Both the position numbers and the translations under genes were made by a program. Below the pieces are notes generated by a model. That model saw only the letters and a program-made list of their open reading frames with translations. It made no database searches and had not been told where the DNA came from. A DNA stretch of 64,000 bases from a phage. Where the stretch lies: the sequence record PZ357121.2. One strand, 5' to 3'. Below are positions 1,107 to 53,698 of the stretch, piece by piece. The stretch's first letter is position 1, and every line of letters begins with the position of its first letter.

Positions 1107-1265
1107 TCAGCGTAGTATTCTAGTTGAACAGGTTTTAATCACTTTAGCCGCTTTAGTTTCAAACAGGCCCTTATGGGCCTTTTTAAGAATTTGTTCGTTG
1201 CTGTTAATTTTCGTAGTCAAAATCTCTTCGTTAAGTTGGTGGTTAAAAGTTTTTCTAGAAATCAT
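1107..1265 (-). CDS. small hypothetical protein (52 aa), below ORF-track cutoff
   Basis: ATG overlaps stop of upstream gene (ATGA); SD GAGGT 8 nt upstream; manual translation MISRKTFNHQLNEEILTTK... Confidence 0.3.
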   Translation of the reverse strand: MISRKTFNHQLNEEILTTKINSNEQILKKAHKGLFETKAAKVIKTCSTRILR

Positions 1266-2422
1266 TCTGGGTACCTCAAAGCGTCGTCAGAGTTAGTTAT
1301 ATCAATAATAGATATAGAATTTTCTGATAACCCATTTTTAGATAACTGACGTTTATAATATCTTTCACAATATGTACACGTCGTCCCGCAGATTTCATTA
1401 GCACAATCGAAATCTGGATGTTTGAACCACCTTTTTTCTAAAAAGCCATCTAACAAAGAGGTTTCAATATTTACCGTATGTGAAAACTCAGTTTCGTTTT
1501 CAAGAGTGAAAATGGTCTCTAAAGGCTTCCACAATTCCAACAAATTACCTTCAAATTTTTCAGAAGCATAAGCTTCAAGAACTTTCAAAATGTAGTCTGT
1601 GCTACCTGTACGTCCCGAAACTTTAAATTGGGTGATACCAATATCGTTATAAAGTTTCAAATCTTGTGGACGAACAAAACGAGTTCTCAACCAGTTAAAT
1701 GGGTCTGTATCACGAGCTTTAATACAGTGCTGCATTGGATATCCATTTAAGGATTTGGCATCATCTACTGTAACATCGGTGCTATGGAAAATATAGCAAG
1801 AGTCACGATAACTACAATGTGTTGTATACCCTTTACCAGCATTAGAACAGAACTCATTTACAAGAACTTCAAATATTATATTGTTCTTATTGCAAAACTC
1901 TGCTGCACGCTTCAGGAAAGAAACTGAACGGTTCTTATGAATTCCACAGCAGACCTTTTTGATATTATATTGGTCATGCAAGTATTTGATTTGAGTTACA
2001 GCATCGACATGTAGAATTGTTGAAACTTCAATCTCAATGTCTTTATTGACTTCACGAACAATTTCCATAACAACAGGGTTAGCGATAGTAATACGCCATA
2101 CGCCTATTGACCAAAGATACTGAACATAATCCTGAATAGCTTTCTTCTTCCACTCAACTAGTTCTCTTTTTGAACCAGGATTTATCGTGTTGAGTGTATA
2201 GTTAAAGCAAATACCTAATTCGTTACAACGTTTAACGTAATCTTCTAACATCTTTTTGTCAACGTCGGGAAGCCTAAAATCAGGTCTGGCTGCTACAAAA
2301 GCCATTTCTCTTGTAGAGCCGTATACTTCGTTTATCAAGCTATTAGGATAAGTTTTATTGAGCTCTACGATTTTATCAAGAAGAGCTAAATCAAAATTCG
2401 TTCCGATTTTAAAGGTATTCAT
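1262..2422 (-). CDS. peptidase-U32-like TIM-barrel protein with Cys cluster (putative Fe-S enzyme), function unknown
   Basis: 386 aa; U32-like segments (KIGTNFDLALLDKIVEL, FNYTLNTIN, EVLVNEFCSNAGKGYTTHC); C-terminal CANEICGTTCTYC. Confidence 0.75.
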   Translation of the reverse strand: MNTFKIGTNFDLALLDKIVELNKTYPNSLINEVYGSTREMAFVAARPDFRLPDVDKKMLEDYVKRCNELGICFNYTLNTINPGSKRELVEWKKKAIQDYVQYLWSIGVWRITIANPVVMEIVREVNKDIEIEVSTILHVDAVTQIKYLHDQYNIKKVCCGIHKNRSVSFLKRAAEFCNKNNIIFEVLVNEFCSNAGKGYTTHCSYRDSCYIFHSTDVTVDDAKSLNGYPMQHCIKARDTDPFNWLRTRFVRPQDLKLYNDIGITQFKVSGRTGSTDYILKVLEAYASEKFEGNLLELWKPLETIFTLENETEFSHTVNIETSLLDGFLEKRWFKHPDFDCANEICGTTCTYCERYYKRQLSKNGLSENSISIIDITNSDDALRYPE

Positions 2423-2863: not shown

Positions 2864-4548
2864 TAGATTCGTTCCCATTGATGAGTGATATCGCCACCGA
2901 TTGGACGATAAGAAACACCAGTTTCTTTATCAGTTAGTACCCATTTACCAGGATTTTTTGTAATCAGAGTAGCCGTTACAGGTTCTGCTACATCATAACT
3001 AATAGTGCCGTCCTGAAGTACACGGCCCATGTTACGTAATTGCTTAGTCAGAAGTTCCATACCTTTATAATATGCGGCTACCGCTTTAAGTGGATTATTC
3101 TTGAAATAACCACCTAATGCAATCCAGATAATTGCCACTGCCAAATGATGATACTCGTTAAACGAACTCATCTTTCCATATTTGTAAACTAACGGATTGA
3201 TGTTAATAGTCACATTACAAGTTGTTTCATCAATAGTAAACTGTCCCCAAGTCGGATTAGCGTTGAATTCATCATAACCTGAAACAGCGTAAAGCACTTT
3301 AGCTTCATCATACAATTTTGGCCCATAAATCTTGGTTTCACCAAAATATCCACGAGGGTCGATAAACTTGACTTCACCATTATCAGTAATCATAGTATTA
3401 CTGAAGTTCGGGTCACCATGAATAACAGAGTACTGTCCCTGAGAACGGTTATGATAACGAATAAGGTGTTCTAAAGCTTGTTTCAACATTGGCTTCAGAC
3501 GCCCAATCTTAGTGTAGTTCACATGTGTGATTTTACCAAATGAATCAATCAATGGTTGAATACTTTCACAACGATCAATAACTTTAGTATAGAATTCTTT
3601 AGTGAAATCACGACGAACAGTTTCAGGACTTACAAAATAAGTGTCTGTGCTGAATTTCAGTGCATCTAAAATTGCATCAACAATTTGTGGACGAGCAAGA
3701 CTTGATTTGGATTTAATATATTCAAATGCCGGCTTACCTTTAATGCGTTCCATTTCAAAGTTATTTTCATTAACAGAAACTAACTGAGGAACTGAATCTG
3801 ATTTCACTTTAAGATACCATGAAATCTCATCTTTCTGAAGAGCTCGGCCCTGTTCGGTTAATGCGAATTTAGTTACAGTTTCTTCACCAATTTCAACTGC
3901 ATTAAAACTACGATTAAGTTCACGAACTTCATGAGCTTTTTCAAGTTTAGGCATATCACCTAAATCAATTAGATTCATAAGCTCTGATTTATTGAATGCG
4001 CTGCCGTAAAGGAATTCTACGAAATCACGTCCTTTGCAGTATTCATGAATTTCCTCATCAGTAGAACCCATATAGAATTCCCAGTCTTTGAACTGATAAA
4101 TTCCTACAACATTACCACCTGTTGAACCTACATTAGTGATATTTTCACCGTCGAAATTATATCGACATTCGTCACCCTTAACATAGATTGCGTTAACATT
4201 CCAAGACCACGAACCAAAATCAGGAATAATATCACACCAGTTAACAATTACATTATGGCCGTCTAAATCTTTGTGCAATTTAGCAAGAGCATAAGCAGAA
4301 CCATACGCTTCATCAACTGTACGAATAGTCACATTGAACCCTTCTTGCTCACAATAAGCTCGAACAGTTTCAGCAAATTTTGAATGAACTACTACAATAA
4401 TTTCATCTGCGCCAAGGTCAGAATAAATTGTATACAAATTGCTCAGAATAGTGTCTTGTTTATAGTTAACAAGCACCTTAGGAATATGATGCGTTATTGG
4501 ATACAAACGAGTTGCCAGTCCAGCACCAAGAATAACAGCTTTTTTCAT
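2863..4548 (-). CDS. bifunctional sugar-1-phosphate nucleotidyltransferase / sugar kinase
   Basis: 561 aa; N-terminal NTP-transferase motif ILGAGLATRLYPIT..PKVLV; C-terminal APH/choline-kinase-fold motifs IHGDPNFSN and FIDPRGY; SD GAGGA. Confidence 0.85.
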   Translation of the reverse strand: MKKAVILGAGLATRLYPITHHIPKVLVNYKQDTILSNLYTIYSDLGADEIIVVVHSKFAETVRAYCEQEGFNVTIRTVDEAYGSAYALAKLHKDLDGHNVIVNWCDIIPDFGSWSWNVNAIYVKGDECRYNFDGENITNVGSTGGNVVGIYQFKDWEFYMGSTDEEIHEYCKGRDFVEFLYGSAFNKSELMNLIDLGDMPKLEKAHEVRELNRSFNAVEIGEETVTKFALTEQGRALQKDEISWYLKVKSDSVPQLVSVNENNFEMERIKGKPAFEYIKSKSSLARPQIVDAILDALKFSTDTYFVSPETVRRDFTKEFYTKVIDRCESIQPLIDSFGKITHVNYTKIGRLKPMLKQALEHLIRYHNRSQGQYSVIHGDPNFSNTMITDNGEVKFIDPRGYFGETKIYGPKLYDEAKVLYAVSGYDEFNANPTWGQFTIDETTCNVTININPLVYKYGKMSSFNEYHHLAVAIIWIALGGYFKNNPLKAVAAYYKGMELLTKQLRNMGRVLQDGTISYDVAEPVTATLITKNPGKWVLTDKETGVSYRPIGGDITHQWERI

Positions 4549-35283: not shown

Positions 35284-35322
35284 GATAGGACTACTATAAC
35301 ATAGTCCTATCAAGATGTAAAC
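35284..35322 (-). promoter_or_regulatory. early promoter with 28-bp perfect palindrome (PeSL-type cassette)
   Basis: GATAGGACTA-CTATAACA-TAGTCCTATC followed by tgtaaac (GTTTACA on minus strand); identical palindrome at 53660 and near-identical at 45274 and 46568. Confidence 0.55.
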
Positions 35323-42524: not shown

Positions 42525-42806
42525 CTATTTTTCTGAAGCGCCTGAAATATATTTTTCAAGACGTTGTTTCATTAGCGAGCCGTTCTTAGCGATTTCTTCC
42601 GGTTTATCGCACATACGTAACAAGGCTTCAAGCTTAGCGATATCGCTGGTACGTTCAAATTTGCGAGTATCTATCTTACTAGCAAGTTCAGAAATACGTG
42701 CTAATAGACTTTCAGCTTCAACCAAAGCTGCACCTAGCTTAGTTGCAAATGTGTCAGTAGCTTCGTTAAGAATAGATTCTGATAAAAATTCACTATATGT
42801 TTTCAT
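42525..42806 (-). CDS. internal (capsid-injected) protein with capsid-targeting sequence, ipIII-like
   Basis: From ATG 42806 starts [11 protein letters not shown]; ATGA overlap with e stop; 93 aa. Confidence 0.7.
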
Positions 42807-43291
42807 ATATACGCTTTCCAAGTTCCTGTTTTAAATGTTGAGATTACGCGTTTCGCGCGATTAGGTGTCTGACGATACCATTTAGATTGGGCTAGATTTA
42901 CTGCCGCTTCATCCCAACGTTTCTGTTGAAGCATACGAAGAGAATTAGTAAAACCGGCGACTCCTGCTACACCCATTTGGAAGACCATATTGACCAATGC
43001 ACACCGACGAACTGCATCTAAAGAATCATATACCGGTTTAAGTTTAGCATTACCCAAGATTCCGCGGACGGCTTTATCAACGTCTTCATTAAATAGCTTT
43101 TCAGCCTCATCAAGGGTAATTGTACCGTTGCATTTACGTCCGATCATTCTGTCAAGTTCAGCTTTAGCTACGGCTAAAGACGGATTCTTTGTTACTAAAT
43201 GACCTATGCCAATCGTCCAAAAGCCTTCAGTGTCTTTGTATAAAGTCAGTCTAAGACCTTCGTCATTACGAAGCATTTCAAATATATTCAT
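42803..43291 (-). CDS. e: endolysin (T4 lysozyme e)
   Basis: 162 aa from ATG 43291: [32 protein letters not shown]...; SD GGAGG; near-identical to T4 lysozyme. Confidence 0.95.
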
Positions 43292-43325
43292 AATACCTCC
43301 CACGTTTATAGGAGGTATTTATTAC

Positions 43326-43784
43326 TTATAGGAGGGTAGTGAGCACCTTATATAATGATTTGCCCATTACATATTCCCATTGAGAAGGTTTAATTAAAGC
43401 GAATGCATCAAATTCAGGAATCTGTCGTCCGTCTGGGAACGTATGATAGGAATTACAAACACTGTTTCTGAATTGCTCGTGCTCTACAGGGATGGTATAT
43501 AAGAACAGATGAATATTCTTATTGTCTGAGTAACGATGTTCACCTAGGTCTTTCAGGAAGGCAGGGTCATATTGTGTAAACCCAGTTTCTTCTTCGCATT
43601 CACGAATAGCGGCTTCGATAGGAGATTCACCGGGCTCGACACGGCCTTTAGGAATATCCCACCGATGAGCTAAAGAACCTTTAGGACGAGAACCAGTTAC
43701 ACGGCCCATGAATAACTCTTTATCTTTTGTCATGAAGATAATACCAGCTGATAGCTCTTTCACTTTATTTTTCTTACTCATCAT
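43326..43784 (-). CDS. nudE: Nudix hydrolase NudE
   Basis: Nudix box GRVEPGESPIEAAIRECEEETG; next to e as in T4. Confidence 0.85.
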   Translation of the reverse strand: MMSKKNKVKELSAGIIFMTKDKELFMGRVTGSRPKGSLAHRWDIPKGRVEPGESPIEAAIRECEEETGFTQYDPAFLKDLGEHRYSDNKNIHLFLYTIPVEHEQFRNSVCNSYHTFPDGRQIPEFDAFALIKPSQWEYVMGKSLYKVLTTLL

Positions 43785-44260
43785 CTCAAATTCCTGCATT
43801 CGGTAATAAAATGTTCAACTTCATTATTCTTGGCCTTTATCTTGTCTTTATGATCTTGTAAACTACTTTTAATAAGATTAATAATGATGGCGGCGGTACC
43901 GCCGCCAATGATGCCACCAACAACACTTATGATACTAGATGCTAATAAGATAGCAATAATATCAACAAAACCGAAAGAACTCACCTTAGTACTGAAAAAC
44001 CATATAGACGGTACAAATATAATCCATCCTGTTATCCATTGGCACTTATTGAAAAACCTTTCAAGCTCAGCTTGAGTTGTTCGTATTACTTCATCGATAG
44101 GTTGATATCCATTAATGTATCTGTTCACGATAATACCTGCTGGCTGGTCGATTTTAAATTCTTGACAAATATGTTTCACTAAGTAGGATGGACAGGATGT
44201 CCAATCTACTGAATAGTATGAAATACCTTCATTGCCATCGTCTATATTATTGTTAATCAT
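43781..44260 (-). CDS. membrane protein (C-terminal FITECR junction motif)
   Basis: 159 aa; TM segments; ends ...EHFITECRNLR. Confidence 0.55.
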   Translation of the reverse strand: MINNNIDDGNEGISYYSVDWTSCPSYLVKHICQEFKIDQPAGIIVNRYINGYQPIDEVIRTTQAELERFFNKCQWITGWIIFVPSIWFFSTKVSSFGFVDIIAILLASSIISVVGGIIGGGTAAIIINLIKSSLQDHKDKIKAKNNEVEHFITECRNLR

Positions 44261-44946
44261 TACCAGCCTTCCATAGGGAATTCCAGATAAACTTGAGCAT
44301 TGACACGAATTTCATTGGTAATCTTTTTAACTCGGTCTGTATTACGAGATACACGTCCGAACCAACGCCATCCATTACTAATTGCACGAGAACCAGTGTG
44401 CCATGTTTGCCAATCAAACTGAAGAAGAGTACGATCTGGAGCTTCCCATTTCTCTAGTTCACCTTTTTCGATTTTTTCGAGGACTTCTTTGTGCCACTGG
44501 CGATAGATAAGTTCGCCATCAGGAATCTGACCGAACTCTGCAGTTCCTGTTGCAAAATGAGTAGGACACACATCAGCGTTAACAAGACCAAGAATATGTT
44601 CAGAATGGTAACGAGGGTTGTCATAATCAGGTTGTCCTGCAGTAATAAAGTGTTGACCGGCTGGAATATCAGGGCGTGGTACGTCATCATGGTGATATCC
44701 AGGAATAGCAGGATACCAACCAGGCATCAACATGTGAACTCGTGAATCAAATACTACATCCGAGTCTTTCCAATCGCCAGGAAGATTTTGGATAAAGCTA
44801 CGAGTAATTGGACCGCCATTATCAAAAGCAAAATTCAAATCGCAGTTAAAGAACATAGGCTCGTTTTTAATCTGGTCGTTTTTAATCGCGTGAGCAAAAC
44901 CACCTACTGCACGAGCTTGGCTATTAAACACTTTAGAACTATTCAT
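44260..44946 (-). CDS. hypothetical protein
   Basis: 228 aa ORF; SD GAGGAAAA. Confidence 0.6.
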   Translation of the reverse strand: MNSSKVFNSQARAVGGFAHAIKNDQIKNEPMFFNCDLNFAFDNGGPITRSFIQNLPGDWKDSDVVFDSRVHMLMPGWYPAIPGYHHDDVPRPDIPAGQHFITAGQPDYDNPRYHSEHILGLVNADVCPTHFATGTAEFGQIPDGELIYRQWHKEVLEKIEKGELEKWEAPDRTLLQFDWQTWHTGSRAISNGWRWFGRVSRNTDRVKKITNEIRVNAQVYLEFPMEGW

Positions 44947-44947
44947 A

Positions 44948-45253
44948 TTATTTTCCTCGACATTCTTTAATGAAATTTTCTAGATTGGTAGATTCAATAG
45001 CTTTTTTACGAGCTTCTGCGTGTTCTTCTTCAGACAATTTACATTTATAATTGACCCAGACATTATGGTCGAAACTAGTCGTGGCATATAATAACAATGC
45101 TCCAACGAATAGCAAAAACGGCGATAAGAATACAAAACCAGGAACACCATCCATATCGTAAGCCTTTTGTAATACTGCAACAGAAAGAGCTGCGTAAAAA
45201 GGTGATGCAAATATTGTTAAAAGACCAATTCGGTTGGTTTCGCCTAATTTCAT
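44948..45253 (-). CDS. membrane protein (C-terminal FIKECR junction motif)
   Basis: 101 aa; two TM segments; ends ...ENFIKECRGK; PeSL promoter upstream. Confidence 0.55.
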   Translation of the reverse strand: MKLGETNRIGLLTIFASPFYAALSVAVLQKAYDMDGVPGFVFLSPFLLFVGALLLYATTSFDHNVWVNYKCKLSEEEHAEARKKAIESTNLENFIKECRGK

Positions 45254-45273
45254 AATATTCTCCTCATGTTTTA

Positions 45274-45311
45274 ATAGGACTACTATAACATAGTCCTATC
45301 ATGTTGTAAAC
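45274..45311 (-). promoter_or_regulatory. early promoter with palindrome (PeSL-type cassette)
   Basis: ATAGGACTA-CTATAACA-TAGTCCTAT then tgtaaac. Confidence 0.55.
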
Positions 45312-45323
45312 AGTTTTGCGAAA

Positions 45324-46280
45324 CTATTTGAAAGGTTTTACCATATGGAAATTTTGTTTGAAACGTTTGACGTAATCATCATGTCCTAAGCTTTGATACA
45401 TACTTACTACTTTGCTGTAGTTTTCCCAGGCATACTCACGGAACCAGCCGGAGGTTATGCTTGTGCAGACTTTTTCTAATGCTATCATAAAACTGGCTTC
45501 AGGGTTAATTTTAAAGTCATTAGGAATCTGAGAACGTTCTAATGCTAGTACACATGATTCTTCGTATACGCCGGCCAATTTGACCATTTCTGGCAATGAT
45601 TCAAACTTCTCGCGTGAGGTCATGACTTCAGAACCGTCTTTCATATAAAATGTATACGCTGGACGGTCTGTTAGTGCAATGGCTTCATGAATAGTATCAT
45701 GGTCGTATGTATAGATGTCATCTTTAAAGAACGCACTTTTAGAAGTGTCAAGAACTGGGTGAGCATAGTTCAAGGTTTCTTTCTGGCGTTTCAGCATAAT
45801 TTCAGTAAGTTCATCGTTCAGTGTAACACCTTTACCACGAAGATACTGAATATGGTTCATAGTCTTTAAAAAGAACGGATTATTTTTCTTGAAACGATGA
45901 GACATCTTAATTGCAAGACATATCTCAGGAGTTGCCCAGTAAAACCCATTCAAACGGTCTTTAGACAAATGTTTCTTGGCGTATTTTAAAAGGTCATAAG
46001 AAGACGTGAAATCTTCAGGAGTGAGTTCACCGACTAATTCACGGACATTAGTGATTGCCGGAACAATATACGCTTCAAAATGAGTTTCGCGTCCGTTATG
46101 GAAGCATTTGAAAACTTGGACATCAGGGTTATCTTGATGAACATATACACCCATCATTTGATTTTTGAATGTATTCCAAGAACCTTGGTCTGCAATAAAG
46201 TCCCAGTCACTATTTTTGATAGCGTTAGAATCAATAAGACCATGATAGTGAAGTGCACGAGAACCAATAACTAACATCAT
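45324..46280 (-). CDS. hypothetical protein
   Basis: 318 aa ORF. Confidence 0.65.
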   Translation of the reverse strand: MMLVIGSRALHYHGLIDSNAIKNSDWDFIADQGSWNTFKNQMMGVYVHQDNPDVQVFKCFHNGRETHFEAYIVPAITNVRELVGELTPEDFTSSYDLLKYAKKHLSKDRLNGFYWATPEICLAIKMSHRFKKNNPFFLKTMNHIQYLRGKGVTLNDELTEIMLKRQKETLNYAHPVLDTSKSAFFKDDIYTYDHDTIHEAIALTDRPAYTFYMKDGSEVMTSREKFESLPEMVKLAGVYEESCVLALERSQIPNDFKINPEASFMIALEKVCTSITSGWFREYAWENYSKVVSMYQSLGHDDYVKRFKQNFHMVKPFK

Positions 46281-46308
46281 AATATTTTCCTCGGATTAAT
46301 TCATTAAC

Positions 46309-46548
46309 TTAAATTTCACGACATGCGATATCATATTCATCCCAGAGGTCATCGTGTGAAGCCTCTACCAATGGAACGATTGTACCATTTATGTCTTCAT
46401 TATAAGGGCAAATTGTACAGTGCGCATCTTCGAATCGAATGCCTTTGTGTTCAGATTTTTTATAACGCATATCGAATATCTTTGCAAACTTTTCACGAGT
46501 AATGGTTTTAGCAACCACTTCGGTTCCAACACTTTCGTAATAAATCAT
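46309..46548 (-). CDS. hypothetical protein
   Basis: 79 aa ORF; PeSL promoter upstream. Confidence 0.55.
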   Translation of the reverse strand: MIYYESVGTEVVAKTITREKFAKIFDMRYKKSEHKGIRFEDAHCTICPYNEDINGTIVPLVEASHDDLWDEYDIACREI

Positions 46549-46567
46549 TGTGGACTCCGTTTAATTT

Positions 46568-46606
46568 GATAGGACTACTATAACATAGCCCTATCTTGTT
46601 GTAAAC
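46568..46606 (-). promoter_or_regulatory. early promoter with palindrome (PeSL-type cassette, one mismatch)
   Basis: GATAGGACTA-CTATAACA-TAGCCCTATC then tgtaaac. Confidence 0.5.
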
Positions 46607-46610
46607 TGTT

Positions 46611-46808
46611 TTAGCAAGAATAACTAGATGATACCCAGCCTTGAACAGTAATACTATTATTTGATACCGAGATCGCGTTCTGGAGATTCAGGCCTGCGTT
46701 ATCTTCAATCCACAATGTAACTTCTTCGCGTTCTTCTGTTGCAATTTGGAACAGGTTTTCTAGGGCAGCTACTGCCGTACGTACAGCACAATCTAATTCA
46801 CGAGACAT
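46611..46808 (-). CDS. small protein, paralog family member 3 (C-terminus GWVSSSYSC)
   Basis: 65 aa; shares MS(K/R) start, TTAAGGAA RBS junction and W-[VI]-[SA]-S-S-x-x-C terminus with two upstream paralogs. Confidence 0.55.
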   Translation of the reverse strand: MSRELDCAVRTAVAALENLFQIATEEREEVTLWIEDNAGLNLQNAISVSNNSITVQGWVSSSYSC

Positions 46809-46817
46809 ATGGTTTCC

Positions 46818-47090
46818 TTAACAAGTGTGAGAAGATGCGATCCAACCACCAGTTTCGAGGCTCAGGTTGTAGTCGTATTGGTAAACATCAGCCCATTCAG
46901 CATAGCCGTTTTTTGTACAACGTTCAAGATCGGCTTTAAGTTGTCCGGGTGAATGATAGGTTCCACCCATACCATAAGCTGGACACAAGTCGAATGTTGT
47001 GTTTTGTTTATCAGCAATTTCTTTGGCAGCCTCAATAGCTGCATAGATTTTTGCTACGGCTTCAGCCAGTTCGGTTTGTTCTTTAGACAT
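46818..47090 (-). CDS. small protein, paralog family member 2 (C-terminus GWIASSHTC)
   Basis: 90 aa; see paralog family. Confidence 0.55.
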   Translation of the reverse strand: MSKEQTELAEAVAKIYAAIEAAKEIADKQNTTFDLCPAYGMGGTYHSPGQLKADLERCTKNGYAEWADVYQYDYNLSLETGGWIASSHTC

Positions 47091-47099
47091 AATGATTCC

Positions 47100-47405
47100 T
47101 TAGCACAACGCAGAAGACGAAACCCAAGCACCTTCAGTAATAACGTAACCATTACCTTCACGCTTAACATCGCCACCATTATTTTCAATTTCATCTTTCA
47201 TCCACTGGGATACGATTTCACCCTTAGGATAATAAGTACGACCGCTACCATAATCACCTACAGAAAATGATACGGCGTATTGGTCTGCGATCTTTGTTGC
47301 TTCTTCTTCGATACGTTCAGCTTGATTCAGAAGTTTATAAATTGCATCTGAAGCGGATTTGGCATCATTAAACTCTGGTACTTTAATTTCAATAATCTTA
47401 CTCAT
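47100..47405 (-). CDS. small protein, paralog family member 1 (C-terminus AWVSSSALC)
   Basis: 101 aa; see paralog family. Confidence 0.55.
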   Translation of the reverse strand: MSKIIEIKVPEFNDAKSASDAIYKLLNQAERIEEEATKIADQYAVSFSVGDYGSGRTYYPKGEIVSQWMKDEIENNGGDVKREGNGYVITEGAWVSSSALC

Positions 47406-47761
47406 TTTCTACATTCCTTAATAAAGTTTTCTATTGTTTCATTTTCACGTCTAGCTAGGAGTTCATTATAACTAATCATTTGAGAAGCGTAAACCTTTTT
47501 ATTTTTCTTGTTATGGTTTATAAAATCGTAGTAAAAATAGACTACAGTACAAAATGATGCGATGGATGCAAAGGCTTGGGTATACCGTAAGTCCTGCCAT
47601 TGGTCTGTGAATCCACCAGTGTTCCCTATAAATCCTAACACAACGCCGTCAATAAGAAATCCAACTAATCCAAAGGCAAATCCCATGCCAATACTCATAA
47701 TAAAAATTAGAATGTTCTCACCAAGAGAAGGCCATACGGTTAAGAGTTGAGGCTTTTGCAT
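47402..47761 (-). CDS. membrane protein (C-terminal FIKECR junction motif)
   Basis: 119 aa; TM segments; ends ...ENFIKECRK. Confidence 0.55.
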   Translation of the reverse strand: MQKPQLLTVWPSLGENILIFIMSIGMGFAFGLVGFLIDGVVLGFIGNTGGFTDQWQDLRYTQAFASIASFCTVVYFYYDFINHNKKNKKVYASQMISYNELLARRENETIENFIKECRK

Positions 47762-48135
47762 CTTATTTCCTTAACGAATTCCATAGCTTCTTCATATTCA
47801 TACTTTTTAACAGCTTCGTCATACTGAGCTTGGGCTTTTGCGCACTGAACTTTCCATTCTCTTAATCGGGCTCTGTGATGACGTCCTTGGTGCCAATATC
47901 CTGCCCAATTAATAGGCATTAATAAAAATGGTACAATAAACGACCCGGCTATAATAAGTAAAAACACTGCATCAGACGATATAACTTCACTAGAATCTAA
48001 AATAGCTCCTATAATCATAAAGATTAAAAATGCTAAAGCTAAAATAGGGCCAAATAGTACTTCATTTGGGATTAATTTACGCTTGTATTCATACGCCCAG
48101 GGCTTACTTGGCATGTATAGGGTTGGCTTTGACAT
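47740..48135 (-). CDS. membrane protein
   Basis: 131 aa from ATG 48135 (MSKPTLY...); RBS lies in the FIMECR-coding junction of the upstream gene. Confidence 0.5.
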   Translation of the reverse strand: MSKPTLYMPSKPWAYEYKRKLIPNEVLFGPILALAFLIFMIIGAILDSSEVISSDAVFLLIIAGSFIVPFLLMPINWAGYWHQGRHHRARLREWKVQCAKAQAQYDEAVKKYEYEEAMEFVKEIRCKSLNS

Positions 48136-48700
48136 ATTCTCTACATTCCATAATAAATTGCTCAAGGATTAAATTGTTAGTGAAATTAGGACTAACAACC
48201 ATGGTTTCATAAAGCGCATCAATAGCACTTAAAGCATCAACTCTTTTAAGCAAAGGCTTGCCTTCATACATAGTTTCAGAATCGACGATTAACGTAAAGT
48301 AATATTTTTTATTATCGACTAGAACTTCAGTATCGATATAAAACATGTTAGACCTTAAGAGCTTATCTCTAAAACCATAATAATCTTCAGAGCGTTCGCT
48401 GATATAGTCCCGTTCAGTGTTTAAACAACAAACAGACCATGTAGGAGCAACAAAATCAGTGAATCTAATATCATGGTCTGCAACTAGTTTAGCAATAGCT
48501 CCGATATCATGAATCATAATACCTGGGGCTAATAAAGATTTTCGGCGATTTGCATATTCAGTTGTCTCATAAGAAGACGACCAGTACCATTTACGTCCAG
48601 TTGCAACATATCGTAATGAATCAACTAAAGAAGTAGGTGGATTTACCTTATTTCGGAACTCTTCGAACATTGAGTCAATATCATTATTTTGGTTTCGCAT
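48104..48700 (-). CDS. hypothetical protein
   Basis: 198 aa from ATG 48700 (MRNQNNDIDS...), SD AAGGAG. Confidence 0.6.
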   Translation of the reverse strand: MRNQNNDIDSMFEEFRNKVNPPTSLVDSLRYVATGRKWYWSSSYETTEYANRRKSLLAPGIMIHDIGAIAKLVADHDIRFTDFVAPTWSVCCLNTERDYISERSEDYYGFRDKLLRSNMFYIDTEVLVDNKKYYFTLIVDSETMYEGKPLLKRVDALSAIDALYETMVVSPNFTNNLILEQFIMECREYVKANPIHAK

Positions 48701-53659: not shown

Positions 53660-53698
53660 GATAGGACTACTATAACATAGTCCTATCATCATGTAAAC
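53660..53698 (-). promoter_or_regulatory. early promoter with 28-bp perfect palindrome (PeSL-type cassette)
   Basis: GATAGGACTA-CTATAACA-TAGTCCTATC then tgtaaac; identical to the 35284 copy. Confidence 0.55.

What the first reader, a model, noticed from the sequence alone, without database searches (positions are those of the whole stretch)
43781..48160. Recurrent gene-junction cassette encoding a C-terminal FI(K/T/M)ECR motif that doubles as the next gene's RBS
Four gene 3' ends share DNA of the form TTT(T/C)ATTA..GAATG(T/C)(A/C)G(A/G)..ATG: 43781-44260 ends EHFITECRNLR, 44948-45253 ends ENFIKECRGK, 47402-47761 ends ENFIKECRK, and 48104-48700 carries EQFIMECREY. In each case the GGAATG/AGGAA stretch is the Shine-Dalgarno for the downstream gene, which often starts MSK. 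The protein motif may therefore be a by-product of a conserved junction element used for modular gene shuffling, or a real C-terminal signal on small membrane proteins.
Basis: seen in the sequence. Interest (0 to 1): 0.5.

Follow-up and report, generated by a model that had tools for sequence, protein, structure and literature searches.

The report
Shared tail motif of e-cluster proteins
Five neighbouring early genes of this T4-like (RB69-type) phage end in the same short peptide, F-I/V-x-E-C-R; it is a tail conserved at the protein level in a small local gene family, its codons also supply the next gene's ribosome-binding site, and it is not a mobile DNA cassette.

Summary
The window is a Mosigvirus (RB69-like T-even phage). 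F-I-x-E-C-R occurs exactly four times in its six-frame translation, all at C-termini of minus-strand genes within 4.4 kb (about 0.045 DNA matches expected by chance). A fifth, degenerate copy (EFVKEIR) lies between them.

The genes are the T4 e.2, e.3, e.4 and e.5 counterparts plus a Mosigvirus-only 101-aa gene. Whole-genome scans of a Mosigvirus and of T4 find the motif only in this cluster, so it is not a genome-wide junction element.

The motif is conserved as a peptide across Tequatro-, Mosig-, Dhaka- and Gaprivervirus and a divergent metagenomic relative. Codons differ (Arg AGA/AGG/CGA/CGC/CGT) and x varies freely. F and C are among the few invariant residues of the e.3 and e.5 families.

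The RBS claim is right but secondary. The Shine-Dalgarno sits in the I/V-x-E codons, in the C-R codons, or downstream of the motif, depending on where the next ATG lies.

In four membrane proteins the motif ends a long helix inferred to be cytoplasmic. I infer an oligomerisation or docking module. The repeated junctions did mediate one precise gene loss (e.4 in Dhakavirus).

Modest interest: an undescribed motif in uncharacterised accessory genes.

The parts
43781..44260 (-). RB69-type 'e.2' gene (159 aa). It has an N-terminal soluble domain, hydrophobic segments and a basic helical tail ending EHFITECRNLR*.
   Evidence: phrog_2203; named e.2 in RB69; PF26896
43793..43810 (-). Motif codons TTT ATT ACC GAA TGC AGG (FITECR). 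The SD for nudE is CAGGAA at 43791-43796, 6 nt before the nudE ATG at 43784, which overlaps the stop (ATGA).
44948..45253 (-). Mosigvirus-only 101-aa membrane protein ending ENFIKECRGK*.
   Evidence: phrog_9798, weak hit to phrog_2203; 150 records, all Mosigvirus
44957..44974 (-). Motif codons TTC ATT AAA GAA TGT CGA (FIKECR). The SD CGAGGA (44954-44959) lies 7 nt before the ATG of the 228-aa gene (44260-44946).
47402..47761 (-). T4 e.3 ortholog (119 aa). It has a TM hairpin and a long C-terminal helix ending ENFIKECRK*.
   Evidence: (phrog_2330)
47408..47425 (-). Motif codons TTT ATT AAG GAA TGT AGA (FIKECR). The SD TTAAGGAA (47414-47421) lies 8 nt before the ATG of gene 47100-47405 (MSKII..., ATGA overlap).
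47740..48135 (-). T4 e.4 ortholog (131 aa, two TM segments) ending ..AMEFVKEIRCKSLNS*. It carries the fifth, degenerate copy of the motif.
   Evidence: (phrog_2604)
47761..47778 (-). Degenerate motif codons TTC GTT AAG GAA ATA AGA (FVKEIR). The SD TTAAGGAA (47767-47774) lies 5 nt before the e.3 ATG at 47761.
48104..48700 (-). T4 e.5 ortholog (198 aa, no TM segment) carrying ..LEQFIMECREYVKANPIHAK*. The last 11 codons overlap the start of e.4.
   Evidence: (phrog_2607)
48140..48157 (-). Motif codons TTT ATT ATG GAA TGT AGA (FIMECR). A weak SD, TGGAA (48146-48150), lies 10 nt before the e.4 ATG at 48135.
45274..45311 (-). PeSL-type element (early promoter overlapping a hairpin). It is not part of the motif but is the known kind of shuffling cassette in the same region, with a twin at 46569-46606.
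   Evidence: definition in PMC2839356 and PMC4122927

Best explanation
The recurring sequence is the C-terminal cap, hydrophobic-E-x-F-[I/V]-x-[E/D]-C-[R/K], of a small family of neighbouring accessory proteins restricted to T-even-type phages. They are encoded just upstream of nudE and e: T4 e.5, e.4, e.3 and e.2 with an adjacent 63-codon ORF, plus one extra Mosigvirus copy.

Shown:
- The motif is kept by selection on the peptide, not on the DNA.
- It occurs only in this cluster.
- Four carriers are small membrane proteins. In the e.3 model the motif ends one long helix that continues from the last transmembrane segment.
- The fifth carrier (e.5) is soluble and has the motif in its last helix.

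Also shown: the genes are packed end to start, so each next gene's Shine-Dalgarno has to lie in the 3' end of the previous ORF. Codon choice inside or next to the motif supplies it, as AAG-GAA for K-E or as AGG/CGA plus the next codon. There are two alternative registers, and sometimes the SD is outside the motif.

Inferred:
- The tails are cytoplasmic (basic residues after the last TM).
- The motif is the last heptad of an amphipathic or coiled-coil helix, with the hydrophobic residue, F and C on one face.
- It serves as a common oligomerisation or docking module that brings these proteins together, or to one shared partner, at the inner membrane.
- The membrane members arose by tandem duplication.
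- Tails can be passed on or retained during deletions because they carry the next gene's translation start.
For: Locality:
- Six-frame scans of a complete Mosigvirus (TH58, 170.7 kb) and of T4 find F[IV]x[ED]C[RK] in real ORFs only in this cluster, always within 13 residues of the C-terminus.

Peptide-level conservation:
- T4 e.5 has ..EKFVKECREY, e.4 ..KFVKESRCK, e.3 ..EFVIDCRKIK, and a 63-codon ORF ..NNFITECRKLK.
- Dhakavirus and Gaprivervirus e.5 have RFIAECREY with Arg CGC/CGT, e.3 FIKECKS and e.4 FIKEVR.
- Metagenome contig L019 has four consecutive genes ending FVKECR, FIREVR, FIDDCK and FIKMCR.
- F, C, R, E, Y and K of the motif block are among 16 invariant columns in 21 e.5-family sequences at 18-93% identity.
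- F113 and C117 are 2 of 9 invariant columns in 25 e.3-family sequences.
- Within genera, variation falls on x and on residues after the motif.

Codons and SD position:
- Between families, 214 of 356 identical amino acids use the same codon, against 187 expected from codon usage.
- The SD overlaps the I/V-x-E codons when the ATG is -1 to +4 nt after the R codon. It overlaps the C-R codons at a gap of 8-10 nt, and lies downstream of the motif in Dhakavirus e.5 at a gap of 22 nt. In two L019 junctions, read from the junction sequences, it also lies downstream of the motif.

Family relations:
- Profile-profile similarity between families is confined to the tail: 16-19 columns, or 42 columns for e.3 against e.4.
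- The 101-aa protein weakly hits the e.2 PHROG over TM plus tail.
- Two adjacent L019 genes both hit the e.3 profile at about 1e-11.

Structure:
- The AF2 model of e.3 (pLDDT 79) has one helix over residues 59-118, running through the motif.
- Hydrophobic residues concentrate at heptad position a (0.67) when C is set as a, and are rarest at b (0.17).
- Four carriers have hydrophobic TM segments followed by K/R-rich stretches; e.5 has none.
Against: - No experiment or structural homolog gives a function. Pfam, NCBIfam, PADLOC, PDB sequence and Foldseek searches found nothing significant.
- The oligomerisation role is inference only. The heptad signal is moderate, and no multimer prediction was possible.
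- Codon use is not neutral. K at position x is AAG at all but one of the K junctions examined (the 101-aa gene uses AAA), although AAG is 25% of Lys codons in the window. Arg is often AGR. So RNA-level selection also acts on these codons.
- Similarity between families covers only 16-20 residues, so common descent of the tails cannot be separated from convergence or tail transfer.
- The tail is dispensable for phage viability. Frameshifted 97-aa e.3 variants lack it. e.4 is absent in Dhakavirus. p000v lacks most of e.3.
- The Cys is replaced by I, S or V in the e.4 lineage.
Confidence: 0.7

Rival explanations
1. DNA-level junction cassette. A conserved nucleotide element (RBS plus flanks) is spread between gene ends by recombination, and the peptide is only its translation. 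The element drives modular gain and loss of genes, as PeSLs do.
For: - An SD lies in or next to the motif at every window junction.
- Rare AAG and AGR codons are preferred.
- T4 e.5 and e.4 junctions share a 17-nt identical run, AAATTTGTTAAGGAAT.
- e.4 was lost in Dhakavirus exactly between the repeated SD-ATG segments AAGGnGGTTCnnAATG of two junctions.
- A 78-aa ORF indel is flanked by GAGATGA at the e.2/nudE junction.
- The p000v deletion spares the last 30 codons of e.3 together with the downstream start.
Against: - The motif occurs only in one cluster in two whole genomes.
- Variation falls at third codon positions and in synonymous first-position Arg changes (AGA, CGA, CGC), while the x codon is free (AAG, AAA, ACC, ACT, ATG, ATT, GCT, GAT, AGA). 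This is the signature of protein coding constraint.
- The peptide persists where the SD is elsewhere: Dhakavirus e.5, and L019 FIDDCK and FIKMCR.
- Codon identity between families is near expectation.
- The breakpoints of the observed indels lie in the SD-ATG part, not in the motif.
Confidence: 0.12
2. Passive relic of tandem duplication. The genes are old paralogs, and the 3' ends diverged more slowly only because they are doubly constrained (coding plus the next gene's translation start). The peptide itself has no role.
For: - e.3 and e.4 tails align over 42 columns.
- Two e.3-like paralogs sit side by side in L019.
- All junctions carry overlapping translation signals.
Against: - The double constraint covers at most the SD and spacer. 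F, I/V and C lie outside the SD in several junctions, and 23-40 nt upstream of the ATG in Dhakavirus e.5, yet they are invariant.
- e.5 has no detectable similarity to the membrane proteins outside the tail.
Confidence: 0.1
3. Cis-acting nascent peptide. The F-I/V-x-E-C-R peptide acts inside the ribosome exit tunnel to pause the ribosome just as it reaches the next gene's start, promoting termination-reinitiation coupling.
For: The motif is conserved as a peptide yet always lies just before the next start codon. The gap from the R codon to the ATG is -1 to 14 nt in 12 of 13 junctions and 22 nt in one. The distance to its own stop varies from 1 to 14 codons.
Against: - There is no direct evidence.
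- The two distance ranges overlap, because the genes are simply tightly packed.
- The motif sits in a predicted long helix with heptad periodicity, typical of a folded interaction surface.
- Invariant EY-K follows the motif in e.5.
Confidence: 0.05

Closest known systems
PeSL (promoter-early stem-loop) mobile regulatory cassettes of T4-type phages (Arbiol et al. 2010, PMC2839356; Comeau et al. 2014, PMC4122927)
   Same: Both are short sequences repeated at gene boundaries in a hyperplastic region of a T4-type genome. Recombination between copies can remove or add an ORF, as seen here for e.4.
   Different: PeSLs are non-coding, consist of a sigma-70-like promoter plus a terminator hairpin, and are scattered over the hyperplastic regions. 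The FIxECR sequence is coding, conserved as a peptide, lacks a promoter and a hairpin, and is confined to one cluster. Elements of the PeSL type (promoter overlapping a hairpin) are present separately in the window at 35285, 45274, 46569 and 53661.
Translational coupling with the Shine-Dalgarno embedded in the 3' end of the upstream ORF (ATGA or TAATG overlaps, common in T4 early and middle operons; general knowledge)
   Same: SD-like purine runs lie 5-10 nt before each downstream ATG, inside the upstream coding sequence. Stop and start overlap or lie within 12 nt.
   Different: Ordinary coupling does not require a conserved 9-residue peptide. Here the same peptide hosts the SD in two different registers, or not at all.
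T4 e.2, e.3, e.4 and e.5 'conserved hypothetical' proteins (AF158101.6 annotation; PHROGs 2203/35263, 2330, 2604, 2607; Pfam PF26896, PF26876)
   Same: The window genes are their orthologs.
   Different: Nothing in the annotations, family descriptions or the searched literature mentions a shared C-terminal motif.
C-terminal coiled-coil or leucine-zipper-type oligomerisation tails on small bitopic or hairpin membrane proteins (general knowledge)
   Same: A long helix continues from the last TM, hydrophobic residues recur at a and d/e positions, and charged residues flank them.
   Different: No oligomer has been shown. The conserved Cys at a core position and the sharing of one terminal heptad by several different proteins are unusual.

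Membership tests
PeSL mobile regulatory cassette | Non-coding, lies between ORFs | tested here: not met
   All five copies lie inside ORFs, in frame, 1-11 codons before the stop.
PeSL mobile regulatory cassette | Contains a strong sigma-70-like early promoter | tested here: not met
   The promoter scan finds 10/12 or better matches at the true PeSL-like sites (45310-45282, 46605-46577) but none over the motif. The only one nearby is a 9/12 match just downstream of junction 1, which is background level (32 found against 19.5 expected).
PeSL mobile regulatory cassette | Contains a stem-loop that acts as a terminator | tested here: not met
   No terminator-like hairpin lies at any of the five junctions.
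PeSL mobile regulatory cassette | Many copies dispersed over the hyperplastic regions of the genome | tested here: not met
   The motif occurs only in the e.2-e.5 cluster in the whole TH58 and T4 genomes.
PeSL mobile regulatory cassette | Indel breakpoints between related phages fall in the repeats | tested here: inconclusive
   One clean case (e.4 loss) and one microhomology case were found. In both, the breakpoint is in the SD-ATG segment, not in the motif. No systematic survey was done.
Shine-Dalgarno / translational coupling site | Purine-rich stretch complementary to the 16S rRNA 3' end, about 4-10 nt upstream of the start codon | tested here: met
   Duplex energies are -3.3 to -6.1 kcal/mol with spacing of 5-10 nt at all five window junctions.
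Shine-Dalgarno / translational coupling site | Upstream stop and downstream start overlap or are a few nt apart | tested here: met
   ATGA overlaps occur at e.2/nudE and at e.3/next gene. A 2-nt gap follows the 101-aa gene. e.5/e.4 overlap by 32 nt and e.4/e.3 by 22 nt.
Tandem paralog family (e.3-type TM hairpin plus tail) | Detectable homology between members beyond the motif | tested here: inconclusive
   e.3 against e.4: 42 columns, hhalign probability 63%. The 101-aa protein against the e.2 PHROG: E 0.002 over TM plus tail. Two adjacent L019 genes both match the e.3 profile at about 1e-11. e.5 against e.3: tail only.
Coiled-coil / amphipathic helical tail | Continuous helix with heptad-spaced hydrophobic residues | tested here: inconclusive
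   The AF2 helix spans residues 59-118 at pLDDT 83-88. Hydrophobic fractions by position are a 0.67, d 0.47, e 0.50 and b 0.17. The oligomeric state could not be modelled.
C-terminal degradation tag (ssrA-like degron) | Recognition by ClpXP, FtsH or a similar protease at the extreme C-terminus | not testable with these tools
   The motif is followed by 1-14 variable residues, which argues against a strict C-terminal tag.

The most novel reading that the evidence does not exclude
The shared tails are an assembly code. The e.2, e.3, e.4 and e.5 proteins (plus the Mosigvirus extra copy) would form one hetero-oligomeric inner-membrane complex through a bundle of their C-terminal helices, with the conserved Cys residues at the core, possibly binding a metal or acting as a redox switch. 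That would define an uncharacterised T-even membrane machine encoded next to nudE and the lysozyme gene. A less likely variant is that the peptide acts as a nascent-chain signal that couples translation of successive genes.
Probability: 0.2. Interest if true: 0.6.

Novelty: new member of a known kind. Interest (0 to 1): 0.3.

Why it matters
T4 is one of the best-studied viruses, yet about half of its genes, including e.2-e.8, have no known role. A shared C-terminal motif conserved at the protein level links four or five of these neighbouring genes into one functional group. It gives a concrete handle for experiments: tail mutants, pull-downs and multimer models.

The case also shows how a coding motif and a ribosome-binding site can share nucleotides without one being a by-product of the other. 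It shows too that repeated translation-start regions, not only PeSLs, can serve as deletion endpoints in hyperplastic regions.

It is not a new kind of genetic element.

Tried and rejected
- The search for related loci on IMG/VR with the e.4-like protein gave only 2 close loci, so it was useless for divergence analysis.
- Word-indexed protein searches returned only T-even relatives. The exhaustive profile search showed the e.3 family is tiny, with 10 representative clusters.
- Pfam, NCBIfam and PADLOC gave no meaningful hits for the five proteins. A PDB sequence search with the e.5 profile found nothing.
- The AF2 model of e.5 is of low confidence (pLDDT 58). Its Foldseek PDB hits (small alarmone synthetases, E about 0.01, TM 0.15-0.2) are not significant and were not used.
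- Literature searches for the e.x genes returned only noise. The motif strings occur in no paper searched.
- I considered that the ATG inside GAA-TGY (the E-C codons) might be a functional upstream start. It is in frame with nudE in T4 and in the window, and is the annotated T4 nudE start. But it has no SD, and at the other junctions it is followed at once by a stop or is out of frame, so it does not explain the motif.
- I considered gene conversion between junctions. Codon identity between families within one genome (64%) is about the same as between genomes (60%).

Full report
**Identity of the window.** The 5.5 kb around the finding is 93-97% identical to Mosigvirus genomes (RB69-like T-even phages such as TH58, ATK47, ST0 and phage 55). 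All genes concerned are on the minus strand, just upstream of nudE (43326-43784) and the lysozyme gene e (42803-43303).

**Observation.** The four C-termini are exactly as described.
- A six-frame search for F[IVL]xE[CI]R finds them and nothing else in 64 kb, except a fifth, degenerate copy (..AMEFVKEIRCKSLNS*) in the gene 47740-48135, which lies between two of the four.
- At the DNA level, TTYATHNNNGARTGYMG matches 4 times, against 0.045 expected and a maximum of 1 in 1000 Markov simulations.

**What the genes are.**
- 43781-44260 is the gene annotated e.2 in RB69 (phrog_2203, PF26896).
- 47402-47761, 47740-48135 and 48104-48700 are the orthologs of T4 e.3, e.4 and e.5 at 35-50% identity.
- 44948-45253 is a 101-aa membrane protein found only in Mosigvirus (150 records), with a weak hit to the e.2 PHROG over its TM-plus-tail part.
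- Four of the five have strongly hydrophobic segments followed by K/R-rich stretches. The e.5-like protein has none.

**Is it a genome-wide junction element?** No. I assembled the complete genome of the closest relative (TH58, 170.7 kb) and of T4 and scanned all six frames.
- F[IV]x[ED]C[RK] occurs in real ORFs only in this cluster: four times in TH58 and three times in T4, plus the degenerate e.4 copy in each. It is always within 13 residues of the C-terminus.
- One of the T4 hits is a 63-codon ORF between e.2 and nudE (..NNFITECRKLK*) that is not annotated in AF158101.6.
- The reference sequence has an extra T there compared with a recent T4 assembly. The ORF is intact in more than 440 Tequatrovirus records.
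- Together with T4 e.2 it corresponds to the two halves of the Mosigvirus e.2.

**Peptide or DNA?** The motif is conserved as a peptide while the nucleotides change.
- e.5 has FVKECREY in T4, FIMECREY here and FIAECREY in Dhakavirus and Gaprivervirus, with Arg as AGA, AGA, CGC and CGT and with x as AAG, ATG and GCT.
- e.3 has FVIDCRK (TTT GTG ATT GAT TGC AGG) in T4, FIKECRK here and FIKECKS in Dhakavirus.
- e.4 has FVKESR, FVKEIR and FIKEVR in the three lineages.
- A divergent metagenomic relative (L019) has four consecutive genes before nudE-e ending FVKECRGQ, FIREVRNAKTR, FIDDCKNWR and FIKMCRNS.
- In 21 e.5-family sequences down to 18% identity, the block F..ECREY.K is the longest invariant stretch.
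- In 25 e.3-family sequences, F113 and C117 are 2 of only 9 invariant columns.
- Within genera, variation falls on x and on residues after the motif.
- Between different families, identical amino acids use the same codon in 214 of 356 cases, against 187 expected from codon usage, so there is little excess DNA identity.

**The RBS claim.** I located the best anti-SD pairing upstream of each downstream start.
- When the ATG lies -1 to +4 nt after the R codon, the SD is TTAAGGAA (TGGAA at the window's e.5 junction), formed by the I/V-x-E codons. This holds for e.3, e.4 and e.5 here, and for T4 e.4 and e.5.
- When the gap is 8-10 nt, the SD is CAGGAA or CGAGGA, formed by C-R and the next codon. 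This holds for e.2 and the 101-aa gene here, and for T4 e.3 and the 63-codon ORF.
- In Dhakavirus e.5 the gap is 22 nt and the SD (AGAGGTT) lies wholly downstream of the motif. In two L019 junctions the SD (GGAGG, AGGAAA) is also downstream.
- Lys at x is AAG at all but one of the K junctions examined (the 101-aa gene uses AAA), although AAG is only 25% of Lys codons in the window.
But the peptide stays when the SD moves, so the RBS is accommodated within the motif rather than causing it.

**Relationship among the carriers.**
- Profile-profile comparison finds similarity only in the tails: 42 columns for e.3 against e.4 (probability 63%) and 16-19 columns for the other pairs.
- The exhaustive profile search shows a very small family of 10 representative clusters. 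It includes two adjacent e.3-like genes in L019, which supports tandem duplication for the membrane members.
- e.5 shares only the tail.

**Structure.**
- The AF2 model of the e.3-like protein (pLDDT 79) has a TM helix (13-44) and one uninterrupted helix (59-118). The latter runs from the second hydrophobic segment to the C-terminus, at pLDDT 83-88 through the motif.
- With Cys set as heptad position a, hydrophobic residues are commonest at a (0.67), then e (0.50) and d (0.47), and rarest at b (0.17).
- Basic residues directly after the last TM suggest a cytoplasmic tail (inference from the positive-inside rule).
- The e.5 model is poor (pLDDT 58), though it also puts the motif in the last helix, 176-192. 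Its fold search is not significant.

**Shuffling.**
- PeSL-type elements, the known shuffling cassettes of T4-type phages (PMC2839356, PMC4122927), are present separately. Four near-identical copies lie at 35285, 45274, 46569 and 53661.
- The FIxECR junctions fail every structural criterion of a PeSL.
- Nevertheless, the repeated SD-ATG part of the junctions has acted as a recombination substrate. Gaprivervirus P479 has an intact e.4 between junctions ..AAAGGGGTTCAAAATG.. and ..TAAGGAGGTTCGTAATG... Dhakavirus IME341 has exactly one hybrid junction and no e.4.
- A 78-aa ORF present between e.2 and nudE in phage 55, ST0 and p000v but absent here is flanked by GAGATGA.
- p000v has lost most of e.3 but keeps its last 30 codons together with the downstream start.

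**Conclusion.** The finding is a real, previously undescribed C-terminal peptide motif of a local, T-even-specific group of accessory proteins. It most likely forms the end of a cytoplasmic amphipathic helix used for oligomerisation or docking (inferred). Its codons have been co-opted as Shine-Dalgarno sequences in a tightly coupled operon (shown). It is not a mobile junction cassette, although the repeated translation-start regions can serve as deletion endpoints. No function is known for any of the proteins.

Noticed in passing
window 35285-35322, 45274-45311, 46569-46606, 53661-53698 (minus strand): Four near-identical PeSL-type elements. Each is an early promoter (GTTTACA-N17-TATAGT) overlapping a hairpin (TAGGACTA-tgttatag-TAGTCCTA). 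Phage 55 and ST0 carry an extra 66-aa ORF at the 45.3 kb element.
   Followed up: partly
window 46611-47405 (genes 47100-47405, 46818-47090, 46611-46808, minus strand): A second recurrent C-terminus plus junction. Three tandem paralogs (phrog_899 type) end ..W(V/I)(S/A)SSxxC*, and their TAA stop is the first part of the next gene's SD (TGCTAAGGAA..ATG). Dhakavirus IME341 has five such copies in a row.
   Followed up: partly
T4 AF158101.6 about 67475-67664 (L010 about 1176-1365, minus strand); L003 4156-4347: A conserved 63-codon membrane-protein ORF between e.2 and nudE, ending NNFITECRKLK. It is unannotated in the T4 reference, where an extra T and two substitutions break the frame relative to assembly OZ209057.1. 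It is intact in more than 440 Tequatrovirus records. With T4 e.2 it matches the two halves of the Mosigvirus e.2.
   Followed up: yes
L009 (Escherichia phage P479, MW269952.1) about 3105-3473: The e.4 ortholog is intact (122 aa) but is annotated in the record as two small fragments.
   Followed up: yes
L004 (phage p000v) 4492-4590: Most of the e.3 ortholog is deleted (about codons 6-88). The last 30 codons, with the motif and the downstream translation start, are retained.
   Followed up: partly
window 43781-43790, compared with L001 775-1011: A 78-aa ORF is present between e.2 and nudE in phage 55, ST0 and p000v but absent from the window. The insert is flanked by the 7-nt repeat GAGATGA at the start codons.
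   Followed up: partly
window 43888-43907: A perfect GC-rich palindrome, TGGCGGCGGTACCGCCGCCA, lies inside the e.2-like gene, where it encodes the GGGTAA stretch of the last hydrophobic segment. It was flagged as terminator-like in an otherwise AT-rich region.
   Followed up: no
window 43784-43799; T4 nudE start: The ATG inside the E-C codons (GAATGC) of the e.2 tail is in frame with nudE in both T4 and this phage, and is the annotated T4 nudE start (MQEIKMK..). It has no SD, whereas the second ATG does, so the annotated NudE N-terminus is probably 5 residues too long.
   Followed up: partly
L019 (Logan SRR8048111 contig, 3215 bp): A divergent T-even-like contig with four consecutive tail-motif genes (111, 126, 120 and 179 aa) directly upstream of nudE and e. 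Two of them are adjacent e.3-like paralogs.
   Followed up: partly
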